In this document: piece after piece, positions 22,420 through 61,633 of the stretch
How the letters are laid out: each line of letters starts with the position of its first letter
Position numbering within the stretch: the stretch's first letter is position 1
From: a virus
Lineage: Duplodnaviria > Heunggongvirae > Uroviricota > Caudoviricetes
IMG/VR virus record: IMGVR_UViG_3300034091_000309
DNA: 64,000 nucleotides
Reading direction: 5' to 3' (one strand)
Notes under the pieces: model-generated
What the model saw: the letters and a program-made list of their open reading frames with translations, nothing else
What the model was told of the DNA's origin: nothing
The model's database searches: none
Program-made: the position numbers and the translations under genes

Positions 22420-22464
22420 GACAGCTTCTAGCTCTTAGCTGACAGCGAACAGTTAGAAGCTAAC

Positions 22465-22482
22465 AGCCAGCGGCTGTTTTTC
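22465..22482 (+). terminator. rho-independent terminator
   Basis: The hairpin cagccagcggctg is followed by ttttt. Confidence 0.5.
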
Positions 22483-22588
22483 ATTCCCTTGACAGCGAAG
22501 CCGGAGGAGCAGGCTCCCCGGAGGGCTGGGTGCCCCCTGGGCAAGGGAGCGTTTGCTTTTTTAGAAGGATGGGCGGGGAGAACCGCAA

Positions 22589-23995
22589 GTGATTTCTGCT
22601 CGCGCTTTTTATAACGAGATCGACCCGCTCAAGGCCGAGATCCTGCGGGAGGTCATCAAGGCGGGCGCCATCGCGCCGGGGGATGTGGATGAACGATCAA
22701 TTGCAGATGTTCAACCCGGAGACCTCGCTGGATACACTCAAGCGCACTGGTTCGCTGGAGGAGGATTTTGGAGTCTTGCCCTCCGCCAAGCCGGCTGGCC
22801 CGACGAGCGCGAGGTCTGGACGGGAAGCTGCCCCTGCCCCAGCTTTAGCGCGGCGGGCAAAAGAGCGGGGTTTGACGATCCTCGCCACCTCTGGCCTGCT
22901 TGGGCGCGACTCATCCGCGAGTGCAGACCTCCAACAATCTTTGGAGAGCAGGTTGCTGCCGCGATTGGACATGGCTGGCTCGACCTTGTTTGCACAGACC
23001 TGGAGGCGGAAGGCTACGCCGTTGCGGCGGCGGTACTGGGAGCACACAGCGTCGGCGCTCCGCACATCCGGCAGCGGCTGTACTTCGTGGCCGGAGTCGG
23101 ATGCTTGCAGACGAGGCGGCGAATATGCGGACCCGGAGAAGGCTGCACTGCGGCGGGAACAGGGCCATCAGGTGAACCTCTCGGAGTCGGCGCAGATGGC
23201 GGTTTGGACGACGCCCCAGGCGCACGATGCGACGGGACGCTCGAAGGGTCAGAAGGCGATTCACGGGACGAAACACGGCTGCGCGGACCTGGTAGCGGAT
23301 GCGGCTCTGGCGGCTTGGGCGACGCCAGCCGAGCGGGACTGGAAGGACACGCCGGGGATGGCCGAGACGGGAACCAATCCAGACGGCTCAGAGAGAACGC
23401 GGCTGGATATGTTGCCGAGACAGGCGCATCTGGCATGCTGGCCGACGCCGCAGACAGCAGACGACAACCTGAGCCGGATGAAAGATCCGCAAGCCTACGC
23501 AGAGTGGAACCAGGGGCGACCGAACGCAGGGTCCAATCTGGCGACCTATGCGCAGAACCTGGCGAGCTGGCCCAGCCCCTGCACGCCGAGCGGCGGCCGT
23601 TCCGTCTCGACGGAGAAGATGGACGCGACGGGGCGGACGGAGGACGGCCGGAAACACGCGGCGACGCTGGAACATGCGATGAAGTTCGCGGGGTGGACGA
23701 CTCCGAGCCATACGGATTCCGAGCGAGGCGGGACGATGACCCCGGCCATGTCAGGATCATCACTCGTTCAGTTAGCGTCGGAAGTCCGCCCGTGCGGCCA
23801 GCGCCGCTTAACGGCTGGTGGGCGGATGCTGACTGGATCGGATGCCGGGATGGAAAGTTCCGGCCAGTTGAACCCGGAACATTCCCTTTGGCTACAGGGT
23901 ATCCCTGCCGTGTGGGTCTCCTTCGCCTTGCGGGCGATGCAATCTGTGTCCCGGCGGCGCAAGCGTTCATCGAAGCGTACTTAGAGACAGTGTGA
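22589..23995 (+). CDS. dcm: DNA (cytosine-5)-methyltransferase with apparent double frameshift (N- and C-terminal motifs in one frame, W-x-T-P repeat target-recognition region in +1 frame)
   Basis: Motif I is FAGGGF, the PC motif is CPCPSFSAAGKR, motif VIII is HIRQRLYFV, and motif X is GDAICVPAAQAFIEAY, all in frame A. The middle region WTTPQAHD/WATPAERD/WPTPQTADD/WTTPSHTD lies in frame +1 (ORF 22683..23984). Confidence 0.55.
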   Translation: MISARAFYNEIDPLKAEILREVIKAGAIAPGDVDERSIADVQPGDLAGYTQAHWFAGGGFWSLALRQAGWPDEREVWTGSCPCPSFSAAGKRAGFDDPRHLWPAWARLIRECRPPTIFGEQVAAAIGHGWLDLVCTDLEAEGYAVAAAVLGAHSVGAPHIRQRLYFVAGVGCLQTRRRICGPGEGCTAAGTGPSGEPLGVGADGGLDDAPGARCDGTLEGSEGDSRDETRLRGPGSGCGSGGLGDASRAGLEGHAGDGRDGNQSRRLRENAAGYVAETGASGMLADAADSRRQPEPDERSASLRRVEPGATERRVQSGDLCAEPGELAQPLHAERRPFRLDGEDGRDGADGGRPETRGDAGTCDEVRGVDDSEPYGFRARRDDDPGHVRIITRSVSVGSPPVRPAPLNGWWADADWIGCRDGKFRPVEPGTFPLATGYPCRVGLLRLAGDAICVPAAQAFIEAYLETV

Positions 23996-24057
23996 GTGCC
24001 AGTGAACAAGTGAAGCAGTGAATCAGCAAAACGGGTGACGGATGAAGGGCACATGGA

Positions 24058-24936
24058 ATGGGGAAGCTGCCGGCGTTTCAGTTCTACCCCGGAGACTGGC
24101 GGAAGGATGTCGGGGTGCAGTCGCTCAACTACTTTGACCGAGGAGTGTGGCACGAGATGCTTTGCCTGATGCACGAGTCCGAGCGCCGCGGGGTGCTGAC
24201 GCTGAACGGTCAGGCCATGAGCGACGACTCTCTCGGCCGGCTGCTTGGTTTGGATAAGCAAACTCTAACCACCACCTTAAACACCCTGCTAACCTCCGGG
24301 GTGGCCAGCCGCGAGGCCCAGACCGGCGCCATTTTCTGCCGGCGGATGGTGCGCGATGAAAAACTGCGCGAAGTGCGCGCTGCGGCGGGAAAACTCGGCG
24401 GAAATCCTCTTTTGCTTAATCAAAACCGAACCACCCCAGATAACCATGCCACCAAACAAACTCGAACCCCTTCATCTTCATCTTCAGTTTCATCTTCAAA
24501 AACAGAAATACCGGAATCGGCAAAGAACGCCGATTGCTCACCTGATGCTCAGGATCATGAACTCTTCACAGAGAAAAGCGGAGCCCCAACGGCAAGCCGG
24601 TTCCAGGATGCGGCATTGCGCGAGGTCTTTGCCTACTACCTGACCGTGATGCGGCGCAACCGGGCCACCTACACCTTCAGCGCCCTGCGGCGCAAGAAGG
24701 GACTGGCGCGCCTGGAAGAGGCGGTGCGCATGGCGCATGGCAGCTTGGTCGGCGCGGTGGAGCTGATGAAGGCCGTCGTCGACGAGGTGGCGCAGTCGGA
24801 GTTCCACATGGGCCGGGACCCCAAGACCGGGGGCAAGAGCTATTGCGAGTGGGAGGATCACCTCTTCCGCTCGACGGAACAATTTGAGAAGTGGGTGCAA
24901 CGGTACCAAGAGGCTGTAGCGAGAGAACAGAGGTGA
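24058..24936 (+). CDS. phage replication initiation or organizer-like protein (DUF1376-like N-terminus YFQFYPGDWRKD)
   Basis: N-terminal MGKLPAFQFYPGDWRKDVGVQSL; positioned upstream of the helicase. Confidence 0.45.
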   Translation: MGKLPAFQFYPGDWRKDVGVQSLNYFDRGVWHEMLCLMHESERRGVLTLNGQAMSDDSLGRLLGLDKQTLTTTLNTLLTSGVASREAQTGAIFCRRMVRDEKLREVRAAAGKLGGNPLLLNQNRTTPDNHATKQTRTPSSSSSVSSSKTEIPESAKNADCSPDAQDHELFTEKSGAPTASRFQDAALREVFAYYLTVMRRNRATYTFSALRRKKGLARLEEAVRMAHGSLVGAVELMKAVVDEVAQSEFHMGRDPKTGGKSYCEWEDHLFRSTEQFEKWVQRYQEAVAREQR

Positions 24937-25004
24937 GTGGTCAGTGCGAGTCACCAGTGCGCCGCACACTCCACTCTCACACCGAGAACCGAGGAGGACA
25001 TGGA

Positions 25005-25211
25005 ATGGCCAACGTGGCAGTAACCGTGACCATGAACCCGCTGGAGTTGAAACTCTTCCGCCGGGCCGTCGCCAAGGCCGCCGATGAGGGGCAACTGGAG
25101 CGCACGGCGGCACTGAAGCGGATCTGCGAATTGGACACGCTGCGCTGGAAGGAAGAAGAACGAATCAGCAAACCAGCGAGACAGCGGAGTGGAAGACGAA
25201 GAGCGGCATGA
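25005..25211 (+). CDS. small ribbon-helix-helix-like protein (68 aa)
   Basis: RBS gaggagga precedes the ATG; paralog of the N-terminus of the 44440..44895 regulator (LELKLFRRAVAKAADEGQLERTAALKRI). Confidence 0.45.
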   Translation: MANVAVTVTMNPLELKLFRRAVAKAADEGQLERTAALKRICELDTLRWKEEERISKPARQRSGRRRAA

Positions 25212-28807: not shown

Positions 28808-29231
28808 CTACACCACCAAAGTGGCCTCGGCCAAGACGGTCGCACAGATCCAGGAGATTCTGGGCGGCAAGGGCGCATCGCACGTCTCCGTGGACTATGC
28901 CAACGGCAAGGCTACCGCAGTGATCTTCGGGTTGAAGATCGGGGCTAACGCCATCCATTTCCGGTTGCCCTGCAATGTGGCCGGAGTGAGCGCGGCGCTG
29001 AAGAAGTCCAGCCAGCGCAGCGCCATCTGGCGGGATCAGCAGCAGTGCGAACGCATTGCTTGGCGCATCGTGAAGGACTGGGTGGAAGCGCAGATGGCTC
29101 TGGTGGAGGCCAACCAAGCGGAGATGGGCGAGGTGTTTCTGCCCTATGCGATTCACTCCGACGGGGAGACCTTCTTCCAGCACTTCAAGAACAAGCAGTT
29201 GGCGCTGGGGGCTGGAGAAACTGACAACTGA
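28797..29231 (+). CDS. hypothetical protein (144 aa)
   Basis: RBS ggaggggagagcg precedes the ATG, and the start overlaps the MTase stop. Confidence 0.5.
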   Translation: MLLNYTTKVASAKTVAQIQEILGGKGASHVSVDYANGKATAVIFGLKIGANAIHFRLPCNVAGVSAALKKSSQRSAIWRDQQQCERIAWRIVKDWVEAQMALVEANQAEMGEVFLPYAIHSDGETFFQHFKNKQLALGAGETDN

Positions 29232-29269
29232 CGGCTGACAACTGTATTCAAACAATCGAGGAGGGCAAG

Positions 29270-30196
29270 ATGGCGAGCGCGGCGATAGATCAGGTTGCAG
29301 AGATCAGAGATCAGAGATCAGTAGGCGGCGCCCTGCGGGATGCAGAGCTGGCGCCGGTGATAACCATGCCCAGCCGTGTGCTGGGAGATGAGTTGCGGGA
29401 ACAGGTGCTCACCACCCCCGCGACGGTGGACTTGTCGCCGGGGACCCCGGAAGGAACGGGCACCCTGCGGGATGCCGAACTGCGAGAAGCAGTTCTGGAG
29501 AGCGACCGCTGCATCCGGCGGACCTGGATCAACGTAAGAAAGCAGTCGATGGAGATCGGCTGGGAGGCGGCCTTCCTGGAGCGGCATAACGCTTGGCAGT
29601 TTCTGGGCTTCAAGCACCAGCACGCCTACCGCATCGCGGTGGGCATCGGGCGCTCCAACTGGTACCGCCTGATGGCCATCGCGCAGAAGTTTCCCGAACT
29701 GTCGAAAGAGCAGTTCCTGGCCATGTCGATCGAGAACGCGGAGCGGCTGGGCCTGGAACCCAAGGAGGTGCGCTACGACCCGGAGCTGTTGTTGAAGGCG
29801 GCCACCCGCCAAGCGCGGGATTTCAAAGACGAGCTGACCACTCTGGGAGCGCACCGCGAGGGCAGACCCTTGCACGAGCACTGGGTAACGATGGAATGGC
29901 GGCTGCGCGAGGAGCAGCGCGCGGCTATCGAGAGGGGCTTGGGAGAGTGGCAGCAGGAGCATGGCATCGACGATGAGGGCTACGCGCTGGAGCTGCTGAT
30001 CGCCGAGTACCGGGAGCGGCCGACGCTGGTGGGCTTCATCAACGAATCCATCTACCGGCTCAAGCGCGAGGTTGAGGAGGCCGAGGACCTGGGCCGGCTG
30101 CGCGGGAGCTGTCTGCTGCTGGCCAGGGACATGGGCGAGATTTTGAAGGTTTGCTGCGGGGAACAAGACAGGGAACTGTGTGAGGGAAGAGTGTGA
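29270..30196 (+). CDS. hypothetical protein (308 aa)
   Basis: RBS gaggag precedes the ATG; an RPE copy is read in frame at 29412-29450. Confidence 0.5.
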   Translation: MASAAIDQVAEIRDQRSVGGALRDAELAPVITMPSRVLGDELREQVLTTPATVDLSPGTPEGTGTLRDAELREAVLESDRCIRRTWINVRKQSMEIGWEAAFLERHNAWQFLGFKHQHAYRIAVGIGRSNWYRLMAIAQKFPELSKEQFLAMSIENAERLGLEPKEVRYDPELLLKAATRQARDFKDELTTLGAHREGRPLHEHWVTMEWRLREEQRAAIERGLGEWQQEHGIDDEGYALELLIAEYRERPTLVGFINESIYRLKREVEEAEDLGRLRGSCLLLARDMGEILKVCCGEQDRELCEGRV

Positions 30197-30420
30197 GTGC
30201 GGAGTGTGGAGAGTGAGGCGCACTCTGACCACTGTTGCCGGAGGCAACCCATGGGTTTTGACTTGGTCCTTCTTGCAGCGATTTTAGTCGTGTTGGCGAC
30301 TTGGCTGGTGCCACCGCGCGAAAAGTGAACCAGGGAAGAGTGTGAGTGCGGAGTGTGAGTGTGCGGCGCACTGAGGGCTCACACTGACCACTGTTCACTG
30401 ACAACGACAACTGTGACGAA
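30181..30420. repeat. intergenic GT/TGA-rich hairpin spacer motifs (GAGTGTGAGTGCGGAGTGTG...CGCACTC...CACTGACCACTGTTCACTGA), two copies
   Basis: Members of a family of more than 15 intergenic spacers that share GTGAGTG and CACTGTTCACTGACCACTG words and are dense in TGA codons in all frames. Confidence 0.5.
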
Positions 30421-30435
30421 CGAAGAGAGGAACTT

Positions 30436-31242
30436 ATGAGCCGAGAGAAAGTGATCGCGCCCGGCCGCAGACTGGGACGCAAGGCAATCAAGACCGATAC
30501 CCGCACATTGCGGCTGGCAAAATACCTCATGCCGGCCCTGCCGGCGCCGCCGGCGCAGCGGGACTGGACCCAGGGAGTGACGGATTGGGGCATGATGCTG
30601 AACGACACGCTGGGCGACTGCACCATCGCCGGCTGCGGCCACGCGGTGCAGGTGTGGACGCTGAACACAGCGAACGAAATGACGGTCGGGGATGACTCGA
30701 TCCTGGCGGCCTATGAGCAGTGGGACGGCTACGACCCCTCGGACCCGAGTACGGACCAGGGCGGGGTGGAACTGGATGTGCTGACCGACTGGACAAACTC
30801 CAACTTTCCACCCCAGTCGCAAGGACCCGCGTCCGGGGACCCCGGTTTCGCCAAGCATGTGCTGACCGGCTTTGCCGCGGCGAATGTCTTGAACCTGACC
30901 GAGATCCAACAAGCCATCGATTTATTTGGAGGCGTCTACATCGGCGTGGAGTTGCCGCTGACGGCGCAGGAGCAGAGCGAGTGGGATGTGGTCCCGGAGG
31001 ACGGTTCGGGCGCGAGCGCGGCGGGAAGCTGGGGCGGCCACTGCGTTTATGTGCCGGCCTACGACCAGACAATCTTTACCTGCATCAGTTGGGGCGCGCC
31101 GCTGACGATGACGATGGCCTTTTGGCGGGCTTACGTGGACGAGGCCTACGCGCTGTTTTCGCCGGACTGGATGGGCACGGGAACGGCGCCCTCGGGCTTC
31201 GACCAGGCGCAGTTGGCGGCGGACTTGGCGGCGATCTGCTGA
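30436..31242 (+). CDS. hypothetical protein (268 aa)
   Basis: RBS agagagg precedes the ATG; an RPE copy is read in frame at 30808-30845; the identity call is uncertain. Confidence 0.45.
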   Translation: MSREKVIAPGRRLGRKAIKTDTRTLRLAKYLMPALPAPPAQRDWTQGVTDWGMMLNDTLGDCTIAGCGHAVQVWTLNTANEMTVGDDSILAAYEQWDGYDPSDPSTDQGGVELDVLTDWTNSNFPPQSQGPASGDPGFAKHVLTGFAAANVLNLTEIQQAIDLFGGVYIGVELPLTAQEQSEWDVVPEDGSGASAAGSWGGHCVYVPAYDQTIFTCISWGAPLTMTMAFWRAYVDEAYALFSPDWMGTGTAPSGFDQAQLAADLAAIC

Positions 31243-31360
31243 CAGTGTGAGTGGTCAGTGTGGGTGTGCGGTGGTCAGACCCGGTTTTTCACACTGTGCA
31301 CTGACCACTGTTTTTAAGTTTTACCGTTCTGCATCTCCCGCTGCCGGCGGGAACGATCTG

Positions 31361-31399
31361 TTACCCCAACGGCGATAGACCTACCGTTGGGGACCCCGG
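31361..31399 (+). repeat. RPE-like palindromic element copy (intergenic)
   Basis: The sequence reads ttaccccaacggcgatagacctaccgttggggaccccgg. Confidence 0.7.
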
Positions 31400-31518
31400 A
31401 AACCGCTGCTGCCCGTGGTTGTTTCTGGATTGGCGGATCGCAGGAACGGATTGAAAGACAGTTTTTAGCCACTAGCTTCTAGCTTTGAGCTGAAGGCTAG
31501 GAGCTGGAGGCTGTCCTT

Positions 31519-31560
31519 AGCGGGGGTTCAGTTCATAAGTGGTCTGAACCTCCGCTTTTT
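31519..31560 (+). terminator. rho-independent terminator
   Basis: The hairpin gcgggggttcag...ctgaacctccgc is followed by ttttt. Confidence 0.6.
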
Positions 31561-31604
31561 AACTGGCAGCGGAGAAGATTGAAGGCTGCACCGGGAGGAG
31601 ACAG

Positions 31605-32441: not shown

Positions 32442-32481
32442 ACACACTGACCACTGATTTCTATTGAAAGGATTTTTCGAT

Positions 32482-32709: not shown

Positions 32710-32757
32710 ATCCACTTCACTCGCTCACTGGTTCACTCGTTCTGTGAGGAGTCACGC

Positions 32758-34101: not shown

Positions 34102-34432
34102 GCCGAAGCGGGAGCCGATAAGGGTGTTGCGGGACGGGCGCGAGATCTTGAACCTGCTTACCAAGGCGGGGCGCGACGAATACATGCGCCGCATTCGCGC
34201 GATGTGGGAACGGCAGGGACGGCGCTGCTGCCTGGAGGGCTGGATCGAGGGCTGCCCCGGAAAACTAAGGCTGGCCGACGCGGTCTTCGAGCACCAGGAG
34301 GGCCGGGGCATGAACGGAGGCCACCGCGACGACCGCATCGAGAGAAACGGGAGACCCTTGAACGGCGCGGCGCACGCTTGGTGCAACAGCATGAAAGGGT
34401 CGAGGAAGATCAATTATCACGAAGTGCCGTAA
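34082..34432 (+). CDS. HNH-like endonuclease (putative)
   Basis: Contains CCLEGWIEGCPGK...GGHRDDRIERNGRPLNGAAHAWCN. Confidence 0.4.
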   Translation: MNPAAVEPKREPIRVLRDGREILNLLTKAGRDEYMRRIRAMWERQGRRCCLEGWIEGCPGKLRLADAVFEHQEGRGMNGGHRDDRIERNGRPLNGAAHAWCNSMKGSRKINYHEVP

Positions 34433-34467
34433 CAGCGAACGGTTAGGAGCTAGGAGTTAGGCGACCA

Positions 34468-35834: not shown

Positions 35835-35917
35835 GCAAAGCAGTGAAGAGTGTGCGTGTGGAGTGTGAGTGCGCCGCGCACTGTTCACTCACACACGCAA
35901 TCAAAAGGAGGAGAACC

Positions 35918-36692: not shown

Positions 36693-36730
36693 CCACCCCA
36701 GCGACGTGGACCTGTCGCTGGGGACCCCGG
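36693..36730 (+). repeat. RPE-like palindromic element copy
   Basis: The sequence reads ccaccccagcgacgtggacctgtcgctggggaccccgg. Confidence 0.75.
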
Positions 36731-37197: not shown

Positions 37198-37572
37198 GAA
37201 TGTTCTCCTCGGTTCGATCTTCCCAGCCCATCAGGTTCTCCTGCGGGCAAATGCGCGTCCGTGGCGTAATCGACAGATTGGGTTATCTTCTGTATACACC
37301 CTTTGGCCCACGGGCGCAAATTACCGGGGTCACCGGTGCGCGAGTTTTGTGCGCTGGAGCGAAAGTGATGCTGGATGGAGCATCTAAGCATTCAGGCGCG
37401 CAGATTTTTGTGGACAAAAAACGGCTGCTGTGTTTAGAGTAGGCGGGTAGGCACCCATTTTGAACCGGGGTCCTTGGACAGTGGTCAGTGCGAGTGGTGA
37501 GTGCGAGTCAGCAGTGCGCCGCATACTCCACACTCTTCTCTGTTCACTGATCTCTACTAAAAGGAGCTTGCG

Positions 37573-39393: not shown

Positions 39394-39480
39394 ATCGTGT
39401 GAGTGTGAGTGTGGAGTGTGTGGTGCGCTGATGACTCGCACTCACTTGACCCCTGCCTTCTCAGGCACGAAAGGAAGCAA

Positions 39481-40390: not shown

Positions 40391-40470
40391 ACCGCTTCCA
40401 ACCTTTAGCTGAAAGCTAAAAGCTGCCCTTCTAATCCCTGACCACTGTTCACTGACCACTGAAAACTGTC
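40391..40470. repeat. stop-codon-dense spacer (ttagctgaaagctaaaagctg) plus a CACTGTTCACTGACCACTG word
   Basis: TAG, TGA and TAA are spread across all three frames immediately after a gene stop. Confidence 0.45.
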
Positions 40471-40483
40471 CCCTGTTTTTGCC

Positions 40484-45007: not shown

Positions 45008-45043
45008 ACCCCAACGGCATGGACCCGTCGTTGGGGACCCCGA
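45008..45043 (+). repeat. RPE-like palindromic element copy
   Basis: The sequence reads caccccaacggcatggacccgtcgttggggaccccg. Confidence 0.75.
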
Positions 45044-45102
45044 TCAAGGCTCACGCTTTCCGCTATGAGAGCGTTCCCTGCCACTTCACTGCCCTCCTTT
45101 AC

Positions 45103-45140
45103 CACCCCCGCGAACAAAGATCGTTCGCCGGGGACCCCGG
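45103..45140 (+). repeat. RPE-like palindromic element copy
   Basis: The sequence reads ccacccccgcgaacaaagatcgttcgccggggaccccgg. Confidence 0.7.
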
Positions 45141-45654
45141 CTCCTTTCTGGAACAGTGTACCATATTATTTGGCGCGATGTGTCAAATAATATGGCGCGA
45201 TGTGTCAAATGATTTGGCAAGCTGGGAGTCAGTGGTTTAGATTGTCTTTGTGATCGTTGACGGGGAAAATGGAAAAATCTGCATCTGCGACGTGTGCGGC
45301 CAGAATGACCCGCACGGCCGGTGGATTTACCAGCCGGGCGACGAAGAGCGGAAACGGTGCAGAAACCGGAAGTGCCGGCGCGTCGGCTGGAACTCGGGCG
45401 GCCAGGACCGGCGCACTTGGCCGCGGGTGGACCCGGCCTCACTCACGAAAAACGGCAAACAGTGAAGAGTGGGAGTGAATCGTGTGAGCGCGAGTGGCCA
45501 GTGCGCCACCCTCACACTCACGCTGCCCTCTGTTCACTGTCCTCCTGGAAAAATTGCACATCTTGCAACCCATGTGCCGGGGCGGGCGCAATTTTTCCCC
45601 CACATCGGTTCTAAATGGGTTAATGTGTTATGAGCGCAATTTTGGAGGCTTGGG

Positions 45655-47673: not shown

Positions 47674-48029
47674 AAGTGATCTTGGGCGGTAGCCGGAGTA
47701 TTAACGACATCGAAGCGCTCTACGCGGCCATCCGCGAGTCGGGCTTCGAGATCACCGAAGTCGTCTGTGGCGAGGCTCGCGGCGTGGATTTGATGGGCCG
47801 CTGGTGGGCGCAGCAGAACAACATTCATATCGCCAGCTTTGCGGCCGACTGGGCGGCCGATTCCCGGATGGCGGGCTACATCCGCAACCAGAAGATGGCC
47901 GACTATGCCGAGGCGCTGATCGCCGTCTGGGACGGCAAGAGCGTGGGCACTGCGCACATGATCGGCGTGGCCTTTGCTGCGGGGTTGAAGATTCATGTTC
48001 ACCGGACAGACAAGAAAGACAGCCTCTAG
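47670..48029 (+). CDS. DUF2493/SLOG-like (DprA-like Rossmann) protein
   Basis: Contains ILGGSRSI...VVCGEARGVDLMGRWWAQQ...ALIAVWDGKSVGTAHMIGVAFAAGLKIHV. Confidence 0.5.
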   Translation: MKVILGGSRSINDIEALYAAIRESGFEITEVVCGEARGVDLMGRWWAQQNNIHIASFAADWAADSRMAGYIRNQKMADYAEALIAVWDGKSVGTAHMIGVAFAAGLKIHVHRTDKKDSL

Positions 48030-48030
48030 T

Positions 48031-48080
48031 TTCTAGCTGATAGCTAAAGGCGAAAAGCTGACCACTGTTTACTGATCACT
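48031..48080. repeat. stop-codon-dense spacer (tagtttctagctgatagctaaaggcgaaaagctgaccactgtttactgatcactgactg)
   Basis: Same word family as the spacers at 22421, 31465, 34431, 40391, 60911 and 61301. Confidence 0.45.
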
Positions 48081-48103
48081 GACTGCTGGCGCCGGAAGAT
48101 GCG

Positions 48104-52569: not shown

Positions 52570-52618
52570 AGGGTATATGCTGCACAACAGTGGACAGTGA
52601 ACAGTTAAGGAGACAAGC

Positions 52619-54870: not shown

Positions 54871-55575
54871 GTGCAAATTTCTTCCCTTTCCGACCGCCCC
54901 AAGGATCAAAGACCGATCCTCGGGAATCCCAGCGAAACTCCTTCCCTGATCTTGCGTGAGCGCCGGGCGCGGGCGGCCGGGATCTCTCTGCCCCAGCGCG
55001 AAGAACAGTCTGCTCTCTCTTCTCCACCGCCGGCGCCCTGCCTTCCCCTGCGCAGCCCAGGCCCGCTCATCATCGACCTCTACCGCCGCGATTTGGCGGG
55101 GAAGAAGTGTCGCCGTGTGACCAAGGCGGACGGCGACGAGGCGCGGCGGCTGATCCAGGAGATGATCGCCTTCTGCCGGGCTCATGACGCCGCCGGATTG
55201 GCGGCGCCGCAGGTGGGGGTCTATGTGCAGTTGGCCATCGCCATCATGGCGCCCAAGTCTGTCGAAATCCTTGTGAACCCGGAGATCGTGAACCTGGGGG
55301 GCCGGGAGCTGCTGGAGTACGAGGGCTGCCTGAGTCTGCCGCCCCCCGACCAGAACCAAGCGCGGGTCTGGCGCAGCGAGATCGCGCAGGTGCGCGGCGG
55401 GACGCTGGAAGATCCGGAGGCCGGCCGGGTGAAGGTCTACAAGGGCTGGCCGGCGCGCCTGGTGCAGCACGAGATCGACCACCTGCAGGGGCGCTTCTTT
55501 ATCGACCGGTTGAAGCCGGTGGCGCGGGGGCTGGTGCTCAGGCGGTATGAGAAGTTCTTGAAAGAGCAGTTGTGA
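54871..55575 (+). CDS. def: peptide deformylase (5-prime start uncertain; probably a non-ATG start further downstream)
   Basis: Def motifs GLAAPQVG, EGCLS and QHEIDHLQG are present. Confidence 0.6.
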   Translation: MQISSLSDRPKDQRPILGNPSETPSLILRERRARAAGISLPQREEQSALSSPPPAPCLPLRSPGPLIIDLYRRDLAGKKCRRVTKADGDEARRLIQEMIAFCRAHDAAGLAAPQVGVYVQLAIAIMAPKSVEILVNPEIVNLGGRELLEYEGCLSLPPPDQNQARVWRSEIAQVRGGTLEDPEAGRVKVYKGWPARLVQHEIDHLQGRFFIDRLKPVARGLVLRRYEKFLKEQL

Positions 55576-57287: not shown

Positions 57288-57344
57288 AGGCGTTCAAACT
57301 GATCTCTGATCTCTGAAACCTGATCCCTGTTTTGCGGAGGCGGA

Positions 57345-57449: not shown

Positions 57450-57559
57450 CGGCGGGCCGGGTTGGAGGAACGGTGTGAGTGTGGAGTGTGGCGCGCTGAC
57501 GACTCGCACTCGCACTGGCCACTGTTTCACTGTCTCTTTCACTGTTCTGGAGGAACTCA

Positions 57560-58250: not shown

Positions 58251-58287
58251 ACCCCAACGACATGGACCCGTCGTTGGGGACCCCGGT
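58250..58287 (+). repeat. RPE-like element copy
   Basis: The sequence reads gcaccccaacgacatggacccgtcgttggggaccccgg. Confidence 0.75.
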
Positions 58288-58499: not shown

Positions 58500-58543
58500 C
58501 GCAGATTCCTTTCTCACACTGTCCACTGTTCACTGACCACTAC

Positions 58544-58816
58544 CTACTGTCCCCTGGAAGAGCCGGCCGGCCAGATTTTCGAAAGCAGGGCTTGAATCCG
58601 CTCGGCAAAGGTGAGCGCCACCGGGCACTCGCAGTATACCTGGCGATTGAGCGCCTTGAGCAACTGCATGGCCTGCACCCGGCCGTCGAGTGCCGAGAGC
58701 TGGTCGCCTTCTTGGACAAATTCGTCGGCCAGGTACTCGATGGCGTGGCTTAGGATCACCAGCGCGCGTCCCGCCTGGGGAGTGATGCGCCGGCGGCGAT
58801 TGAAGCTATTCTCCAT
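58544..58816 (-). CDS. hypothetical protein (90 aa)
   Basis: RBS gaggagg precedes the ATG. Confidence 0.5.
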   Translation of the reverse strand: MENSFNRRRRITPQAGRALVILSHAIEYLADEFVQEGDQLSALDGRVQAMQLLKALNRQVYCECPVALTFAERIQALLSKIWPAGSSRGQ

Positions 58817-58932: not shown

Positions 58933-59625
58933 TCATTCGATGCTCCTGACCTTATCCGGCCTGGGCAGTTTGATGGCGCCTTTCGCCATCTGGCAGACGG
59001 TGCATTTGCAGCCCAGGGCGTGTCCAGTGCCGGCGGGTCTGGCGATGGTCACGCGCCCGCCCGTTGTGGCGATGGCGTCCGTCTGCTGCCCCGGCGACTT
59101 GGCGCCGGCCTGACCATTGTCGACTGTTCCCTGTCCACTGTTTTGTTCCGCTATCAATGCGCTGGGATCGGGAGCCGGCAAAGAGGGCTGGCGCCAGTCC
59201 TTGCGGCGGCGATCAACTATCAGTGCGCTGGGATCAGGAGCTGGCAGGGAGGGTTGACGCCATTCCTTGCGGCGGCGATCGACGCCATTCCACGAAGTGC
59301 GGTGGCACCATTTGCAGTGGCTACCATGTTTGGGCTCAACCCGCGTGTCCCAGGGCTTGCCTTTGCCGGGGCAGCCGGGGAGTTCGCAGGTGCAGCGATA
59401 GAAGGTCAGCAGAATCTTTTCCGGTTTCTGGGCGGCGACTGCGTTTTTGTTACGGCGGTCGACGCCGTCCCAGCGGTGGCTGTGGCAGGTGGGGCAGACT
59501 TGGGGGCGCTTTTCCTTGCGCGCCGTCCAGCGCCGGCCCTGGCGCGGGCAGCCGGGGGCCTGGCAGCGCCAGCGGTATACGGTTTTGGTGGTGACTTTTA
59601 CGCTCACGGCTGTTCTGCCCCCCAT
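58933..59625 (-). CDS. zinc-finger repeat protein with internal tandem duplication
   Basis: Repeated CPTCHSHRWDGVDRRNK / CKWCHRTSWNGVDRRRKEWRQPSLPAPDPSALI, with the latter unit duplicated. Confidence 0.5.
   Translation of the reverse strand: MGGRTAVSVKVTTKTVYRWRCQAPGCPRQGRRWTARKEKRPQVCPTCHSHRWDGVDRRNKNAVAAQKPEKILLTFYRCTCELPGCPGKGKPWDTRVEPKHGSHCKWCHRTSWNGVDRRRKEWRQPSLPAPDPSALIVDRRRKDWRQPSLPAPDPSALIAEQNSGQGTVDNGQAGAKSPGQQTDAIATTGGRVTIARPAGTGHALGCKCTVCQMAKGAIKLPRPDKVRSIE
59161..59290 (+). repeat. about 60-bp direct tandem duplication inside the CDS
   Basis: The unit ctatcagtgcgctgggatc.ggagc.ggcaa/gggaggg.tg.cgcca.tccttgcggcggcgatc.ac occurs twice. Confidence 0.5.
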
Positions 59626-59858
59626 AGGGATTCGAGAAGGTTCTTGAGACTCTGCGTCAGCTCGTCCATCCTCAAGTCGCCGATGACCGCTCCGCGGAAT
59701 GATCGCTGCAGGAAGGCCAGAAGCAGGGCGCAGTTGCGCAGATCCCGCGGGGTCGGCCGGGACGGCCACTTCTCCGCCGCGAAGAACTGGAAGAGGAATA
59801 CACCGGCAGCACCCAAAAGCGCGCCTCCAACCGCTACGAGAAAGATGGTCCAATTCAT
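59604..59858 (-). CDS. small membrane protein (84 aa)
   Basis: RBS ggaggg precedes the ATG; MNWTIFLVAVGGALLGAAGVFLFQFF. Confidence 0.45.
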   Translation of the reverse strand: MNWTIFLVAVGGALLGAAGVFLFQFFAAEKWPSRPTPRDLRNCALLLAFLQRSFRGAVIGDLRMDELTQSLKNLLESLWGAEQP

Positions 59859-59968
59859 TGTGCTGGCCCTCCAGAAACCGGGTTTTTACACGGTACGACG
59901 AGTGAACAGTGTGAAAACACGGCGCTGCACACTCGCACTCAACACTGGTCACTTCTTCATTGTCTTCC

Positions 59969-60319
59969 TCACACTTCAATCCTCGACTCCACGGCGCGGT
60001 TGGGCTGCACGAAGGCCACCGTCTTGCGCTCCGGCTGGTAGAGTTTGTGCTCGTCGAGATCCACCACGTCGATCTGCACGGGCTGGGGGTGCATCAGGTC
60101 GATGACTTCGGCGACGATCTTGAGATCGGCGTAGAGGCCGGCGAAGGTGACGGCTAATTTCGAGTCGCGTACCAGCATCAGCCAACGGGGCGGCTCATCA
60201 GGGATTTGCCAACCTTCCCGCGCGGGCGCATTGGCCGGGATGCACTCGTCGATAGTTGCGCGGCGGGCGGCGAAGTCGGGCTGGTTGGGGGCGATGCTAC
60301 GCTTTACTTGATCGCTCAT
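59969..60319 (-). CDS. hypothetical protein (116 aa)
   Basis: Protein-like frame. Confidence 0.45.
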   Translation of the reverse strand: MSDQVKRSIAPNQPDFAARRATIDECIPANAPAREGWQIPDEPPRWLMLVRDSKLAVTFAGLYADLKIVAEVIDLMHPQPVQIDVVDLDEHKLYQPERKTVAFVQPNRAVESRIEV

Positions 60320-60864: not shown

Positions 60865-60880
60865 TTTGCCCTGCCGGGCT

Positions 60881-60911
60881 GGGTTGGTTTTGGTTCGCTA
60901 TCAAAAGGCAG
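60881..60911 (-). promoter_or_regulatory. conserved upstream box for leftward genes (plus strand ...GGTTCGCTATCAAA; minus strand TTTGATAGCGAACC...)
   Basis: One member of a family of 6 copies, each 25-60 nt upstream of a minus-strand start codon. Confidence 0.5.
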
Positions 60912-60939
60912 CTCCTAGCTCTCAGCTAAAAGCTCAAGG

Positions 60940-61239
60940 CTAACGACTCTGCTTCACGGGCACGGGCAGCGCATCGCACATCACGATCAGCGGCTCACCG
61001 GAAAATTTGGGAAGGTCCACATGCAGATTCCCGGCCGGCGCCTCACAGGGCGGGGTCTGGACCCAGATCGTCCATTGGCCGCCGGCGAGCTGGGGGCTGG
61101 TGCGCCAGCCGACGCGGGGAGCTGGTCTGGACAACAAAGCGACCGCCAAGATGAGAAGGGCAGTTGCCGCCAAGATGAGAAGGGCAGTTGCGGCAAGAAA
61201 ACCACTGACGACCATGACGATCAAAGGTTTGTTCATCAT
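60940..61239 (-). CDS. small membrane protein with internal tandem repeat (ATALLILA x2)
   Basis: A 24-bp direct DNA repeat gatgagaagggcagttgc.gc.aag occurs twice at 61141-61190. Confidence 0.45.
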   Translation of the reverse strand: MMNKPLIVMVVSGFLAATALLILAATALLILAVALLSRPAPRVGWRTSPQLAGGQWTIWVQTPPCEAPAGNLHVDLPKFSGEPLIVMCDALPVPVKQSR

Positions 61240-61265
61240 CTTTGCTTCTTTCTGGCGCTGCGCAC

Positions 61266-61305
61266 CCGTTATGTTGCGTTGATTTGGCCCGCTATCAAAG
61301 AGCAG
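61266..61305 (-). promoter_or_regulatory. conserved upstream box (minus strand TTTGATAGCGGGCCAAATCAACGCAACATAAC), a TTGATA-N17-ACATAA-like promoter
   Basis: Family member, upstream of the gene 60940..61239. Confidence 0.5.
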
Positions 61306-61333
61306 CTCTTCGCTGTTAGCTTCTAGCCAGAGG

Positions 61334-61633
61334 CTAATGGTTGATGGTGATGGTTTCGGCGCCGATCGACTGCAGGGTGCGCTCGACTTCAAGAAGGAAG
61401 CGGTGGTAGTTGCAGACGTAGAGACTCCCCTGCCGCGAGGCCCAGACGGCATCCTCTCCGCACATGCCCACGCGGTCGCACTCGATCGGGGCCGGTCGCG
61501 CGTCTGGACTCGGGGTCCCCAACGATGGGTCCATATCGTTGGGGTGATGATCGATGGCCCGCCAGACGGCGTCTTCGGCCATCGGCGGAAGGCCGGCTAA
61601 AACCTTGGCTCGGTATTCCTTGCCTAAATCCAT
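61334..61633 (-). CDS. hypothetical protein (99 aa) with an in-frame RPE segment (HPNDMDPSLGTPSPD)
   Basis: RBS gaggcaac precedes the ATG; an RPE copy at 61511-61549 is read in frame. Confidence 0.45.
   Translation of the reverse strand: MDLGKEYRAKVLAGLPPMAEDAVWRAIDHHPNDMDPSLGTPSPDARPAPIECDRVGMCGEDAVWASRQGSLYVCNYHRFLLEVERTLQSIGAETITINH
61511..61549 (-). repeat. RPE-like element copy, inverted orientation, inside a CDS
   Basis: The sequence reads cggggtccccaacgatgggtccatatcgttggggtgatg. Confidence 0.7.

What the first reader, a model, noticed from the sequence alone, without database searches (positions are those of the whole stretch)
22421..61335. Stop-codon-dense intergenic spacers built from two word families (TAGCT/AAGCT words, and GTGAGTG...CACTGTTCACTGACCACTG words)
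Immediately after many stop codons lies a short spacer. Examples are ttagctgaaagctaaaagctg (40391), tagtttctagctgatagctaaag (48031), cttctagctcttagctgacagcgaacagttagaagctaacagc (22421), ctagcttctagctttgagctgaaggctaggagctgg (31465), gttaggagctaggagttaggcg (34431), cctagctctcagctaaaagctcaaggctaac (60911) and gttagcttctagccagaggctaatgg (61301). These place TAG, TGA and TAA in all three frames. A second family (more than 15 copies, for example 30181-30420, 31241-31320, 35841-35900, 37471-37560, 39391-39440, 45461-45540, 57471-57550, 59881-59950) uses GTGAGTG repeats pairing with CGCACTC and the word CACTGTTCACTGACCACTG. This family is again TGA-saturated and can form hairpins. In a ~62% GC genome where stops are rare by chance, these look like selected translational insulators, terminators or processing sites between genes. 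Their regularity is striking enough that an engineered or synthetic origin should also be considered.
Basis: seen in the sequence. Interest (0 to 1): 0.55.

Follow-up and report, generated by a model that had tools for sequence, protein, structure and literature searches.

The report
Seven-base repeat arrays between phage genes
The odd spacers are natural arrays of 7-base simple repeats, often paired into hairpins, that fill the gaps between genes of an uncultured peat-soil phage; similar arrays occur in many other environmental phages and bacteria, their stop codons are mostly a side effect, and their function is still unknown.

Summary
The quoted words are real, each within 14 nt of the stated position. 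The defining property is a 7-nt period, not stop density. Spacers show lag-7 identity of 0.298 against 0.257 (z=6). Four-mer cores repeated at least three times at period 7 give 33 runs against 2.5 in shuffles. The cores are CACTG/CAGTG and AGCT, and 14 of 19 arrays lie in the 13% of sequence that is non-coding.

Stop trinucleotides are not enriched over all spacers (184 against 188 expected). They are not enriched in the GTGAGTG hairpins either. They are enriched only in the AGCT arrays and the direct CACTG arrays, about two-fold. Elsewhere, about 40% of CACTGNN arrays carry no sense-strand stop.

Ten "GTGAGTG…CACTC" elements are inverted heptad arrays that fold into hairpins of 17-32 pairs between a stop codon and the next ribosome-binding site.

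The window belongs to a ~134-kb phage genome assembled independently from several metagenomes, so a synthetic origin is excluded. The same arrays occur in at least 120 IMG/VR stretches and at least 120 bacterial stretches, notably Acidobacteriota. One heptad array differs in copy number between population variants.

This is a new member of a known, functionally unexplained kind: cyanobacterial STRR hairpins and the TAACTGA repeats of Beggiatoaceae.

The parts
22422..22467 (+). AGCT/XAG heptad array (CAGcttc TAGctct TAGctga CAGcgaa CAGttag AAGctaa CAGcc) directly after the AlpA-like gene stop. Positions 22423-22461 fold as a hairpin.
   Evidence: z -3.5 together with the next hairpin
22462..22483 (+). 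Small hairpin AACAGCCAGCGGCTGTT followed by T5; terminator-like.
23988..24030 (+). CAGTG-type (AGTG) array of period 6-8, predicted unstructured, in the leader of gene 24058-24936.
   Evidence: z +1.3
24935..24976 (+). Inverted-array hairpin. The stop codon of gene 24058-24936 lies in its first GTGAGTG word.
   Evidence: (z -0.6)
29219..29244 (+). (AACTGAC) x3.7 spanning the end of gene 28797-29231 and the leader of gene 29270.
29298..29321 (+). (CAGAGAT) x3.4 inside the 5' end of gene 29270-30196. Some population variants have 2.4 copies, which creates an in-frame TAG; gene calls for those variants give a 279-aa product (308 aa in the window).
30184..30239 (+). Inverted-array hairpin that contains the stop codon of gene 29270-30196. 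It is followed by GGAGG and a 25-codon ORF (30252-30329).
   Evidence: (z -3.45)
30325..30420 (+). Inverted-array hairpin (30325-30398) whose 3' arm runs on as direct CACTGAC/CACTGTT/CACTGAC heptads up to the RBS of gene 30436.
   Evidence: (z -1.7)
31241..31316 (+). Inverted-array hairpin that starts in the stop codon of gene 30436-31242 and ends in CACTGACCACTG plus T5.
   Evidence: z -2.9
31457..31515 (+). AGCT heptad array (TAGCTTC TAGCTTT GAGCTGA AGGCTAG GAGCTGG AGGCT) folded into a long hairpin.
   Evidence: z -8.2 together with the terminator
31519..31560 (+). 13-bp GC-rich hairpin followed by T5; an intrinsic-terminator-like site before gene 31605.
32445..32458 (+). CACTGAC CACTGAT directly after the stop of gene 31605-32441, in the leader of gene 32482.
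32716..32742 (+). (TTCACTCG) x3.4, period 8, in the leader of gene 32758.
34440..34462 (+). (TTAGGAGC TAGGAGT TAGG) heptads between genes 34124-34432 and 34468.
35853..35899 (+). Inverted-array hairpin 19 nt before the start of gene 35918.
   Evidence: (z -2.75)
37476..37553 (+). Inverted-array hairpin with a CTGTTCACTGATCTCT tail, 20 nt before gene 37573.
   Evidence: (z -0.6)
39395..39449 (+). Inverted-array hairpin starting 2 nt after the stop of gene 38737-39393.
   Evidence: (z -4.8)
40405..40475 (+). Composite element at a convergent gene junction: (TAGCTGA AAGCTAA AAGCTG), then (CTGACCA CTGTTCA CTGACCA CTGAAAA CTGTCCC CTG). It is predicted to be unstructured. Homology to another genomic context breaks at 40483/40484.
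   Evidence: (z -0.3)
45460..45539 (+). Inverted-array hairpin, the longest of the ten (32 pairs).
   Evidence: (z -4.1)
48027..48095 (+). Composite AGCT-type then CACTG-type direct arrays between the stop of gene 47670-48029 and the start of gene 48104.
52587..52605 (+). (ACAGTGG ACAGTGA ACAGT) directly before the AAGGAG RBS of gene 52619.
57299..57329 (+). (CTGATCT) x4.4 before TTTTGCGGAGG and the start at 57345. A population SNP lies at 57322.
   Evidence: (z +0.7)
57467..57555 (+). Inverted-array hairpin (57467-57528), then CACTG heptads, then a small hairpin that pairs with the GGAGG of the endolysin gene 57559.
   Evidence: (z -2.1)
58517..58556 (-). Heptad array that reads CACTGTC CACTGTT CACTGAC on the + strand. 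It lies between two - strand genes, so their mRNA carries the CAGTG-type form just before AAAGGAA and the start at 58499.
59895..59960 (-). Inverted-array hairpin between - strand genes 59969-60319 and 59604-59858. It has the same arm order as the + strand copies.
   Evidence: (z -0.5)
60910..60944 (.). (AGCTCCT AGCTCTC AGCTAAA AGCTCAA GGCTAAC) in a divergent spacer.
61312..61341 (.). AGCT-word hairpin GCTGTTAGCTTCTAGCCAGAGGCTAATGGT at the convergent junction of genes 61021-61326 (+) and 61334-61633 (-).
   Evidence: (z -2.1)

Best explanation
The spacers are short arrays of heptanucleotide simple-sequence repeats. The unit cores are CACTG, its complement CAGTG/GTGAGTG, and the palindromic AGCT. 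They are the kind known as STRR or 'long SSR' in bacteria, here carried by a temperate ~134-kb phage from peat metagenomes.

Shown:
- The arrays have a 7-nt period.
- They are almost restricted to non-coding gaps.
- They come in two forms. Direct arrays are G-poor, are predicted to be unstructured, and abut the Shine-Dalgarno sequence. Inverted arrays have a G/T-rich arm 5' and a C/A-rich arm 3', and fold into imperfect hairpins of 17-32 pairs spanning from the upstream stop codon to 13-38 nt before the next start.
- One array varies in copy number between natural variants.
- The same words are used by unrelated phages and by bacteria, especially Acidobacteriota, the likely host group.

Inferred:
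- The arrays arise and change by slipped-strand mispairing.
- They persist only outside ORFs, because 7 is not a multiple of 3 and the units often carry TGA or TAG. This is also why they look stop-rich.
- Where they act, they act on the transcript. Hairpins would be intercistronic punctuation affecting mRNA stability, processing or translational coupling, with a few as terminators. Direct arrays would be unstructured leaders or sites for a host RNA-binding factor.

Whether they are selected at all is not settled.
For: Period 7:
- Lag-7 identity in spacers is 0.298 against 0.257±0.007 in shuffles (z=6.0), with echoes at lags 14 and 21. Coding sequence shows only period 3.
- There are 33 runs of a 4-mer repeated ≥3 times at period 7, against 2.5 in shuffles. 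Periods 5, 6, 8, 9 and 10 give 4, 13, 9, 6 and 2. The top cores are CACT, ACTG and AGCT.
- 14 of 19 arrays in 22-62 kb are non-coding or at a gene boundary, where non-coding sequence is 13.1% (P=2.7e-9).

Hairpins:
- All ten elements fold with the same architecture. z-scores run from -0.5 to -4.8, with seven at ≤-1.7.
- Sense RNA is more stable than antisense in 9 of 10 (sum -309.7 against -248.5 kcal/mol), which fits G·U pairs.
- AGCT arrays at 22423, 31457 and 61312 also fold (z -3.5, -8.2, -2.1). Direct arrays are no more structured than shuffles (z -0.3 to +1.3).

Natural origin and mutability:
- Contigs of 134,250 and 134,264 nt come from independent assemblies.
- Among variants, the only indel is one heptad unit at 29298-29321.
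- One of the few SNPs (57322) lies in another array.

Spread:
- CACTGNN x4 occurs in ≥120 IMG/VR stretches, often as (NNCAGTG)n-loop-(CACTGNN)n just before an RBS and ATG.
- It also occurs in ≥120 bacterial stretches. Terracidiphilus and other Acidobacteriaceae use the same CACTGTT/CACTGAC units before an SD and ATG.
- AGCTNNN x4 is likewise widespread.
- Relatives of the phage use other heptads at the same gene junctions: GTCCGTN/ACGGACN and GTTGAGA/TCTCAAC in L491 and L502. Other relatives have none.

Precedent:
- 7-bp STRR hairpins occur between cyanobacterial genes and have been proposed to stabilise transcripts or couple translation (PMC2670836).
- TAACTGA repeats lie directly upstream of start codons. 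Their stops explain their exclusion from ORFs (PMC4679880).
- Heptameric SSRs are over-represented in intergenic regions, with polymerase slippage proposed as the cause (PMC4692102).
Against: - There is no covariation evidence for selection on the hairpins. The alignment is uninformative.
- Each 5' arm pairs about as well with the 3' arms of other copies as with its own (-29.0 against -26.9±6.8 kcal/mol). The complementarity is therefore generic to the word family.
- Three of ten hairpins are no more stable than shuffles.
- Both orientations of the CACTG word occur directly upstream of SD sequences (23988, 52587 and 58517 against about nine in the CACTG sense). Across other genomes the orientation bias toward gene starts is only 54:31. 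This weakens any strand-specific RNA-site model.
- Local slippage alone does not explain why the same core recurs at many loci and in unrelated genomes. It also does not explain why inverted arrays always have the G/T-rich arm 5' (42:0 elsewhere, 10:0 here).
- No expression data are available.
Confidence: 0.6

Rival explanations
1. The arrays are neutral by-products of replication slippage. Heptad arrays and their inverted versions are simply tolerated in non-coding gaps and have no function. Their sharing between phage and host reflects a shared replisome bias or recombination.
For: - A copy-number polymorphism and a SNP fall in arrays among near-identical variants.
- Relatives at 36-68% protein identity lack arrays at the same junctions or use unrelated heptads.
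- There is no copy-specific arm complementarity.
- The literature ascribes the heptamer excess to polymerase slippage (PMC4679880, PMC4692102).
Against: - The same core recurs at about 19 loci here and in hundreds of unrelated contigs.
- Inverted arrays have a strict polarity, 42:0 elsewhere plus 10:0 here.
- Hairpins sit precisely between a stop codon and the next RBS.
- Arrays tend to point toward gene starts, 54:31, peaking 10-30 nt from the start.
Confidence: 0.3
2. The arrays are binding sites for an oligomeric RNA-binding protein that reads one short motif per subunit in a 7-nt register, like HutP, or more loosely like TRAP, S1, Csp or CsrA. Such a protein would control termination or translation of the downstream gene.
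For: - HutP recognises three XAG motifs separated by 4-nt spacers (period 7), in two sets flanking a terminator stem (PMC2425495).
- The arrays at 22422-22467 and 31457-31515 carry XAG at period 7 for 6-7 units and are followed by terminator-like hairpins with a T5 run.
- Direct CACTG arrays are single-stranded and abut the SD.
- MacGregor proposed S1, Csp or CsrA binding for the TAACTGA repeats (PMC4679880).
Against: - No HutP, TRAP, CsrA, Hfq, S1 or CSD domain appears among the 25 Pfam families listed for 99 window proteins; 46 families matched in all.
- The conserved core of family 1 is the palindrome AGCT rather than XAG.
- Both orientations of CACTG occur in leaders.
- Different relatives use quite different heptads, which would need many different factors.
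Confidence: 0.15
3. The spacers are selected translational insulators. They are kept because they place stop codons in all three frames after a gene.
For: - 5 of 7 quoted AGCT strings close all three frames.
- In the first 45 nt after + strand stops, 5 of 24 close all frames against 1.2 expected.
- Direct CACTG leaders have 14 stops against 7.1 expected.
- CTGA units make up 41-43% of CACTGNN units elsewhere; an even split over the four bases would give 25%.
Against: - Stop density over all spacers equals or falls below expectation.
- The hairpin family is not enriched in stops.
- The minus strand of the AGCT strings has as many stops as the plus strand.
- 38-41% of arrays elsewhere have no sense-strand stop, and only about 31% close all frames.
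- A 7-nt unit that contains a stop closes all frames automatically.
Confidence: 0.08
4. The arrays act at the DNA level. They would be binding sites for a phage or host DNA-binding protein (stoperator-like or iteron-like), or recombination hot-spots that mark module boundaries.
For: - The arrays occur in both orientations.
- AGCT is a palindrome.
- In another metagenome contig, homology to gene 40484-41692 breaks exactly at the end of the array at 40483/40484.
- The phage is temperate: it has an integrase and HTH proteins.
Against: - A 7-bp spacing puts successive sites on different faces of B-DNA.
- Sense RNA folds better than antisense in 9 of 10 hairpins.
- The arrays sit next to SD sequences rather than promoters, and the sigma-70 scan found no excess of promoters.
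- The same words occur in many unrelated genomes, so a phage-specific repressor is unlikely.
Confidence: 0.07
5. The sequence is an engineered or synthetic construct.
For: Only the visual regularity of the words.
Against: - The sequence was recovered from several independent environmental assemblies, with natural SNP and indel variation.
- It has no plasmid or vector similarity and no match to cultured phages.
- It has typical phage gene content.
- The same arrays occur in hundreds of environmental contigs.
Confidence: 0.005

Closest known systems
Cyanobacterial STRR (short tandemly repeated repetitive) heptamer sequences, e.g. the hairpin between hupS and hupL (PMC2670836; PMC4692102)
   Same: Both have 7-bp units in tandem, an intergenic location between co-transcribed genes, and the ability to form hairpins. 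In both cases the function is unknown, with transcript stability or translational coupling proposed.
   Different: The unit sequences differ (CACTGNN, GTGAGTG, AGCTNNN). The carrier here is a phage, and the likely host phylum is Acidobacteriota. The arrays here are short (3-6 units) and degenerate.
TAACTGA direct repeats of marine Beggiatoaceae, some Cyanobacteria and Bacteroidetes (MacGregor 2015, PMC4679880)
   Same: Both are heptamers with an ACTGA-like core, in 2-6 copies, lying within a few nucleotides upstream of start codons. In both, stops in the forward orientation keep them out of ORFs. In both, a patchy phylogenetic spread suggests horizontal transfer.
   Different: Only one 'indirect' (inverted) repeat was reported there. 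Here inverted arrays (hairpins) are half of the loci. Here an ordinary SD follows the array, whereas the BOGUAY repeats overlap the expected ribosome-binding site and canonical SD sequences are rare in those intergenic regions. No phage carrier was reported.
GGGAATC / GGGGA(T/C)T heptamer repeats of Xanthomonas and Nostoc (PMC4692102), and the five-unit MTYCTGA sites of Geobacter metallireducens (PMC2700814)
   Same: All are intergenic heptamer arrays. Some occur as plus/minus-strand pairs that can form stem-loops. They vary in length between close relatives. The Geobacter consensus NNNCTGA resembles the CTGATCT and CTGACCA units seen here.
   Different: The Xanthomonas and Nostoc repeats are G-rich and form quadruplexes. 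The units here are not G-tract sequences.
HutP binding sites in the Bacillus hut terminator (PMC2425495)
   Same: Both show XAG motifs at an exact 7-nt period (three per set) next to a terminator hairpin. The arrays at 22422 and 31457 have this layout.
   Different: No HutP homologue was detected. The conserved core here is AGCT. The arrays are dispersed over many genes rather than confined to one operon leader.
RNase III processing hairpins between phage T7 genes, and REP-type intercistronic stabiliser hairpins (own knowledge, not tested here)
   Same: All are imperfect hairpins of about 20 bp or more, placed between cistrons of long phage or operon transcripts.
   Different: The hairpins here are built from tandem heptads. 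Cleavage or stabilisation has not been shown.

Membership tests
Heptanucleotide simple-sequence repeats (STRR / long SSR) | Tandem head-to-tail units of 7 nt, at least 3 copies, in excess over chance | tested here: met
   33 runs against 2.5 in shuffles, and more than at any other period from 5 to 10. Lag-7 z=6.0. TRF finds period-7 arrays at 29219, 29298, 30189, 40438, 57299 and 58517.
Heptanucleotide simple-sequence repeats (STRR / long SSR) | Predominantly intergenic location | tested here: met
   14 of 19 arrays are non-coding or at a gene boundary, against a 13.1% non-coding fraction (P=2.7e-9).
Heptanucleotide simple-sequence repeats (STRR / long SSR) | Unit number or sequence varies between close relatives (slippage) | tested here: met
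   The only indel among ≥99.95% identical variants is one CAGAGAT unit. A SNP lies at 57322 in another array. The number of events is small.
Heptanucleotide simple-sequence repeats (STRR / long SSR) | The same unit family recurs at many loci and is lineage-typical | tested here: met
   About 19 loci in the window. CACTGNN arrays occur in ≥120 viral and ≥120 bacterial stretches. Relatives use other units.
Intrinsic (rho-independent) terminators | GC-rich hairpin immediately followed by a U-run | tested here: not met
   Met only at 22462-22483, 31519-31560 and 31241-31316. The other nine inverted-array hairpins (of ten; 31241-31316 is the exception) lack a T-run.
HutP/TRAP-type repeated-triplet protein sites | NAG triplets at a fixed short spacing, in sets flanking a terminator | tested here: inconclusive
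   The layout is present at 22422-22483 and 31457-31560. The conserved core, however, is AGCT.
HutP/TRAP-type repeated-triplet protein sites | A cognate ring-shaped RNA-binding protein is encoded | tested here: not met
   None is listed among the Pfam matches of 99 window ORFs; only the top 25 of 46 families are shown. The host genome and the other 70 kb of the phage were not examined.
RNase III / intercistronic processing hairpins | Double-stranded stem of about two helical turns located between cistrons | tested here: met
   17-32 predicted pairs, running from the stop codon to 13-38 nt before the next start.
RNase III / intercistronic processing hairpins | Cleavage or transcript ends at the hairpin | not testable with these tools
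   No RNA data are available.
Conserved structured RNA family | Compensatory base changes that maintain pairs; an Rfam match | tested here: not met
   The alignment gives no consensus structure. Own-arm and cross-arm pairing are equal. No Rfam match at E≤1 in 30100-31650, nor at gathering score in the whole window.
Synthetic three-frame stop cassette / engineered construct | Vector similarity and absence from natural samples | tested here: not met
   No plasmid match. The sequence is present in several environmental assemblies with natural variation.

The most novel reading that the evidence does not exclude
Heptad arrays form a shared 'punctuation code' of certain bacterial lineages (here probably Acidobacteriota) and their phages. 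A conserved host factor, or the translation or termination machinery itself, would read 7-nt-register words. The strictly polar inverted arrays (G/T-rich arm always 5', 52:0) would then be functional intercistronic devices that phages copy from their hosts. If so, heptad spectra could predict hosts, and the long-unexplained excess of heptamer repeats in bacteria would have a mechanistic handle.
Probability: 0.15. Interest if true: 0.7.

Novelty: new member of a known kind. Interest (0 to 1): 0.4.

Why it matters
Heptanucleotide repeats are the commonest long simple repeats in many bacteria, and their function has been unexplained for decades. This window shows them as the main filler between genes of a large temperate phage. 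It also shows the same words in unrelated phages and in the probable host phylum. Copy-number change is caught in a natural population, and the inverted arrays have a strict polarity that I did not find described in the literature searched. A phage is a compact system for testing whether such arrays affect transcript processing or translation. Shared heptad words might also serve as a host-prediction signal. As it stands, the finding corrects an over-interpretation (selected stop-codon insulators, synthetic origin). It places the elements in a known but poorly understood class.

Tried and rejected
- MAFFT/RNAalifold on the ten hairpins gave no usable consensus, because the copies differ by whole words.
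- Own-arm against cross-arm duplex energies showed no copy-specific complementarity, so I make no covariation claim.
- The sigma-70 promoter and terminator consensus scans found no more sites than shuffles.
- Rfam gave only tRNAs at gathering score and nothing at E≤1 across 30100-31650.
- Megablast against cultured phages and plasmids gave no match. A distant search with the 40390-40483 spacer returned only a chance hit.
- A Pfam scan of 99 ORFs for RNA-binding domains found none among the 25 families listed, of 46 that matched.
- I tested whether the polarity of the hairpins reflects stop-rich 5' arms and start-codon-free 3' arms.
  - The 5' arms are not stop-enriched beyond composition (15 against 12.7), and they are rich in GTG (51 against 24.3).
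  - The 3' arms are not depleted in start codons (10 against 11.4).
  - Only the direct leaders show fewer starts (3 against 6.7) and more stops (14 against 7.1).
  - This explanation is therefore not supported beyond base composition.
- Homologues of gene 30436-31242 at 36-68% identity were examined for orthologous hairpins. The closest ones have none, so no orthologous comparison of structure was possible.
- The host could not be identified directly. The Acidobacteriota assignment rests on shared heptad words only.

Full report
**Context**

The window is gene-dense, mostly + strand, with GC of 0.55-0.63.
- It carries 22 tRNA genes at 562-13952.
- It carries a TROVE/Ro60 gene, RecT, a PD-(D/E)XK nuclease, a tyrosine integrase (20684-21934), a DnaB-type helicase and DNA methylases.
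- It also carries an HNH endonuclease and an endolysin.

Exact-protein look-ups place it on contigs of 134,250 nt (JGI 3300033405) and 134,264 nt (two ENA assemblies). These contigs have different start points. It also lies on several shorter contigs. All are ≥99.95% identical to the window. It is therefore a natural, probably complete, ~134-kb temperate phage genome from peat-type metagenomes. It has no near match among cultured phages or plasmids. This excludes the synthetic-origin suggestion.

**Checking the observation**

The seven quoted AGCT-type strings are present, 3-14 nt from the stated positions. Five of them close all three + frames. The eight listed GTGAGTG…CACTG regions are present.

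Stop density is not a general property of the spacers.
- Over 44 spacers (5,928 nt) I count 184 stop trinucleotides, against 188±9.5 in dinucleotide shuffles and 223±11 in mononucleotide shuffles.
- 14 of 41 spacers close all three frames, against 14.2 expected.
- The second family is not TGA-saturated. Total stops match expectation in most elements, and 2 of 14 close all frames.

An excess exists only locally.
- In the first 45 nt after + strand stop codons, 5 of 24 close all frames against 1.2 expected, with 47 stops against 37.7.
- In the direct CACTG-type leaders there are 14 stops against 7.1.
- The minus strand of the AGCT strings has about as many stops as the plus strand. This argues against strand-specific selection.

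**What the spacers are**

The strong signal is a 7-nt period.
- Spacers show lag-7 identity of 0.298 against 0.257±0.007 (z=6.0), with echoes at lags 14 and 21. Coding sequence shows only period 3.
- Runs of a 4-mer repeated at least three times at exactly 7-nt spacing number 33, against 2.5 in shuffles. Periods 5, 6, 8, 9 and 10 give 4, 13, 9, 6 and 2.
- The leading cores are CACT/ACTG (that is, CACTG) and AGCT, then CAGT and CTGA.
- These merge into 20 arrays. Of the 19 that lie in 22-62 kb, 14 are non-coding or at a gene boundary, although only 13.1% of that region is non-coding (P=2.7e-9).

Because 7 mod 3 = 1, three successive units that contain TAG or TGA place a stop in each frame.

**The hairpins**

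The 'GTGAGTG … CGCACTC … CACTG' family is the same word in inverted arrangement: a G/T-rich arm of (NN)CAGTG/GTGAGTG words, a GC-rich apex, then a C/A-rich arm of CACTC/CACTG words. All ten copies fold into one long imperfect hairpin of 17-32 pairs. The z-scores against dinucleotide shuffles are -3.45, -1.70, -2.86, -2.75, -0.58, -4.78, -4.11, -2.11, -0.64 and -0.53.
- They start between 12 nt before and 19 nt after the end of the upstream ORF's stop codon in most cases. In four of them (24935, 30184, 30325, 31241) that stop codon lies inside the 5' arm.
- They end 13-38 nt before the next start codon in eight cases.
- The copy between - strand genes (59895-59960) has the same order on the - strand.
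- Sense RNA is more stable than antisense in 9 of 10 (sum -309.7 against -248.5 kcal/mol). This fits G·U pairs and an RNA-level structure.
- The 3' arm often runs on as unpaired CACTGNN units up to the SD (30382-30420, 37529-37557, 57510-57550).

AGCT arrays behave similarly. Three fold well: 22423-22461, 31457-31515 and 61312-41 (that is, 61312-61341). Two of these are followed by a separate terminator-like hairpin plus T5, with z of -3.5 and -8.2 for the composites and -2.1 for the third. Purely direct arrays are no more structured than shuffles (z -0.3 to +1.3).

**Limits of the structural evidence**

The copies cannot be aligned column by column, and RNAalifold gives nothing. Each 5' arm pairs about as well with the 3' arms of the other nine copies as with its own (-29.0 against -26.9±6.8 kcal/mol). 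Hairpin potential is therefore a property of the word family. There is no compensatory-change evidence for selection on individual stems. No Rfam family matches.

**Beyond the window**

- The exact 19-mer CACTGTTCACTGACCACTG occurs in four IMG/VR contigs that share no other nucleotide similarity with the window. Three times it lies directly before TTTTGCGGAGCAAAAC…ATG or TTCTGGAG…ATG.
It is commonly arranged as (NNCAGTG)n-loop-(CACTGNN)n just upstream of an RBS and ATG.
- It also occurs in at least 120 stretches of bacterial genomes: Acidobacteriota, Planctomycetota, Chloroflexota, Cyanobacteria, Bacteroidota, Verrucomicrobiota and others.
- Terracidiphilus, other Acidobacteriaceae and other Acidobacteriota use the very units of this phage (CACTGTT, CACTGAC, CACTGAT, CACTGTC), often directly before an SD and ATG.
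- Of 11 taxonomically named genome loci that hold the mixed 14-mers CACTGTTCACTGAC or CACTGACCACTGTT, six are Acidobacteriota. This makes Acidobacteriota the probable host group, by inference only.
- AGCTNNN x4 arrays are likewise common in IMG/VR, over a wide GC range and in the same positions.
- In these wider sets, 38-41% of CACTGNN arrays have no sense-strand stop, and only about 31% close all frames. An ORF start with an SD lies within 80 nt downstream in the CACTG direction in 54 arrays, against 31 in the opposite direction.

**Evolution**

Homologues of gene 30436-31242 at 36-68% identity sit in tight gene arrays without spacers, or in spacers without heptads. Two more distant relatives (L491, L502) have very dense arrays (12-20 per 10 kb). 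They flank the homologous gene with inverted heptad hairpins built from different words: GTTGAGA/TCTCAAC, and GTCCGTN/ACGGACN-AAGGACN, the latter supplying SD-like AAGGA in the 3' arm. Arrays therefore turn over quickly, and each lineage has its own words.

Among the near-identical population variants, the only indel is the loss of one CAGAGAT unit at 29298-29321. That loss creates a TAG and moves the start of gene 29270-30196, giving a 279-aa product in place of 308 aa. One of the few SNPs (57322) lies in the CTGATCT array. This is direct, if sparse, evidence for elevated mutability by slippage.

**An unexplained regularity**

In the IMG/VR and genome loci, a CAGTG-type array lies within 110 nt upstream of a CACTG array 42 times and downstream never. 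With the ten copies here this is 52:0. This arrangement is its own reverse complement, so it is not a gene-strand effect.

For inverted heptad arrays with other cores, the 5' arm is the G+T-rich one in 118 cases against 41 (these counts are not fully independent). I tested whether this reflects stop-rich 5' arms and start-free 3' arms, and found no support beyond base composition. Avoidance of exposing a C-rich, G-poor arm first (Rho loading), or a bias of the generating mechanism, remain untested ideas.

**Mechanism**

The following points are shown:
- the arrays are natural heptanucleotide arrays;
- they are restricted to spacers;
- they occur in direct and inverted forms;
- the inverted forms have hairpin potential;
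- they sit between a stop codon and an RBS;
- they are shared with unrelated phages and bacteria;
- one array varies in copy number.

The following points are inferred:
- The arrays originate by slipped-strand mispairing.
- They are excluded from ORFs by frame disruption and by the stops they carry. MacGregor argued the same for TAACTGA (PMC4679880).
- If they act, they act on the transcript. Hairpins would serve as intercistronic stabiliser, processing or coupling elements, as proposed for 7-bp STRR hairpins between cyanobacterial genes (PMC2670836). Direct G-poor arrays would serve as unstructured leaders or protein sites.

A HutP-like reading (XAG every 7 nt next to a terminator; PMC2425495) fits the layout at 22422 and 31457. 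It lacks a candidate protein, however, and the conserved core is AGCT. Neutrality cannot be excluded.

**Comparison and novelty**

Heptamer SSRs are known to be over-represented in intergenic regions of many bacteria, with slippage invoked as the cause (PMC4692102; Mrázek 2007 as cited in PMC4679880). Specific families have been described: STRR, TAACTGA, GGGAATC, and MTYCTGA in Geobacter (PMC2700814). My literature searches found no description of CACTGNN or AGCTNNN arrays in Acidobacteriota or in phages.

I classify the finding as a new member of a known, functionally unexplained kind. Three aspects look new: the phage carrier, the sharing of words with the probable host phylum, and the strict polarity of the inverted arrays. 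Interest is moderate.

Noticed in passing
window, 29 copies, e.g. 642-675, 13999-14032, 27941-27974, 30805-30848, 36696-36729, 58252-58285, 61698-61731: A second, unrelated repeat family. It is a ~34-44-nt palindromic element, CA-CCCC-N6-(loop …GACC…)-N6'-GGGG-ACCCCGG, whose stem varies between copies while the arms stay complementary.
- It occurs in both orientations. Fourteen copies lie inside called genes, in all three phases.
- The copy at 30805-30848 is a 14-aa insertion (SNFPPQSQGPASGDP) absent from all 19 homologues of gene 30436-31242. The element therefore inserts into ORFs and is read through, like Rickettsia palindromic elements or in-frame MITEs.
- The consensus has no stop in any of six frames.
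- A strict pattern finds it in 64 IMG/VR stretches and in none of about 120 bacterial 8-kb loci. There is no Rfam match.

   Followed up: partly
window 6918-7032 (+) and 7081-8526 (+): A full-length but sub-threshold match to YrlA, the Y RNA-like family RF02553 (41.2 bits, E=1.2e-7, gathering score 69). It lies directly upstream of a TROVE/Ro60 gene. ARAGORN called the same stretch tRNA-Ser(cga), 6919-7015. This is probably a phage Ro60-Y RNA module. A 94-nt x1.9 tandem repeat lies just upstream at 6603-6778.
   Followed up: partly
window 29298-29321: (CAGAGAT)3.4 inside the 5' end of gene 29270-30196. Two of six other assemblies carry one unit fewer, which introduces an in-frame TAG, and there the gene is called as 279 aa instead of 308 aa. 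This is a phase-variation-like switch in a phage gene of unknown function.
   Followed up: yes
window 562-13952, 54871-55575 and elsewhere: Translation-related cargo. There are 21-22 tRNA genes, a peptide deformylase, and ORFs matching tRNA-synt_2c and Seryl_tRNA_N domains.
   Followed up: no
window 30252-30329 (+): A 25-codon ORF, MGFDLVLLAAILVVLATWLVPPREK (hydrophobic), with its own GGAGG. It sits between two heptad hairpins. The gene calls listed with the contigs do not include it.
   Followed up: no
window 40483/40484; locus L518: A 2,991-nt ENA contig carries gene 40484-41692 at 99.9% identity next to a histidine-kinase C-terminus instead of the phage neighbours. Homology ends exactly at the end of the heptad array. 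The - strand block 40484-45084 may be a recently exchanged cassette.
   Followed up: partly
window 45171-45218 and about 20590-20683: TGGCGCGATGTGTCAAATAATA x2.2 lies in the divergent spacer 45085-45249. Repeated AAAAATAGCACCA words lie upstream of the integrase. Both are operator-like repeats, possibly the lysogeny control regions.
   Followed up: no
window ~60895, ~61683, ~62975, ~63985: The motif GG(T/C)T(N)GCTATCAAA recurs in spacers among the - strand genes of the right-hand end. It is a candidate promoter or operator of the leftward genes.
   Followed up: no
loci L012, L014, L053, L063; window 30234-30248: In several phages the SD is presented in the loop of a small A-U-closed hairpin right after the CACTG array, as in UUUUGC-GGA-GCAAAA and UUUUUU-GGAGG-AAAAA. 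The window has GUUGCC-GGA-GGCAAC before the 25-codon ORF.
   Followed up: no
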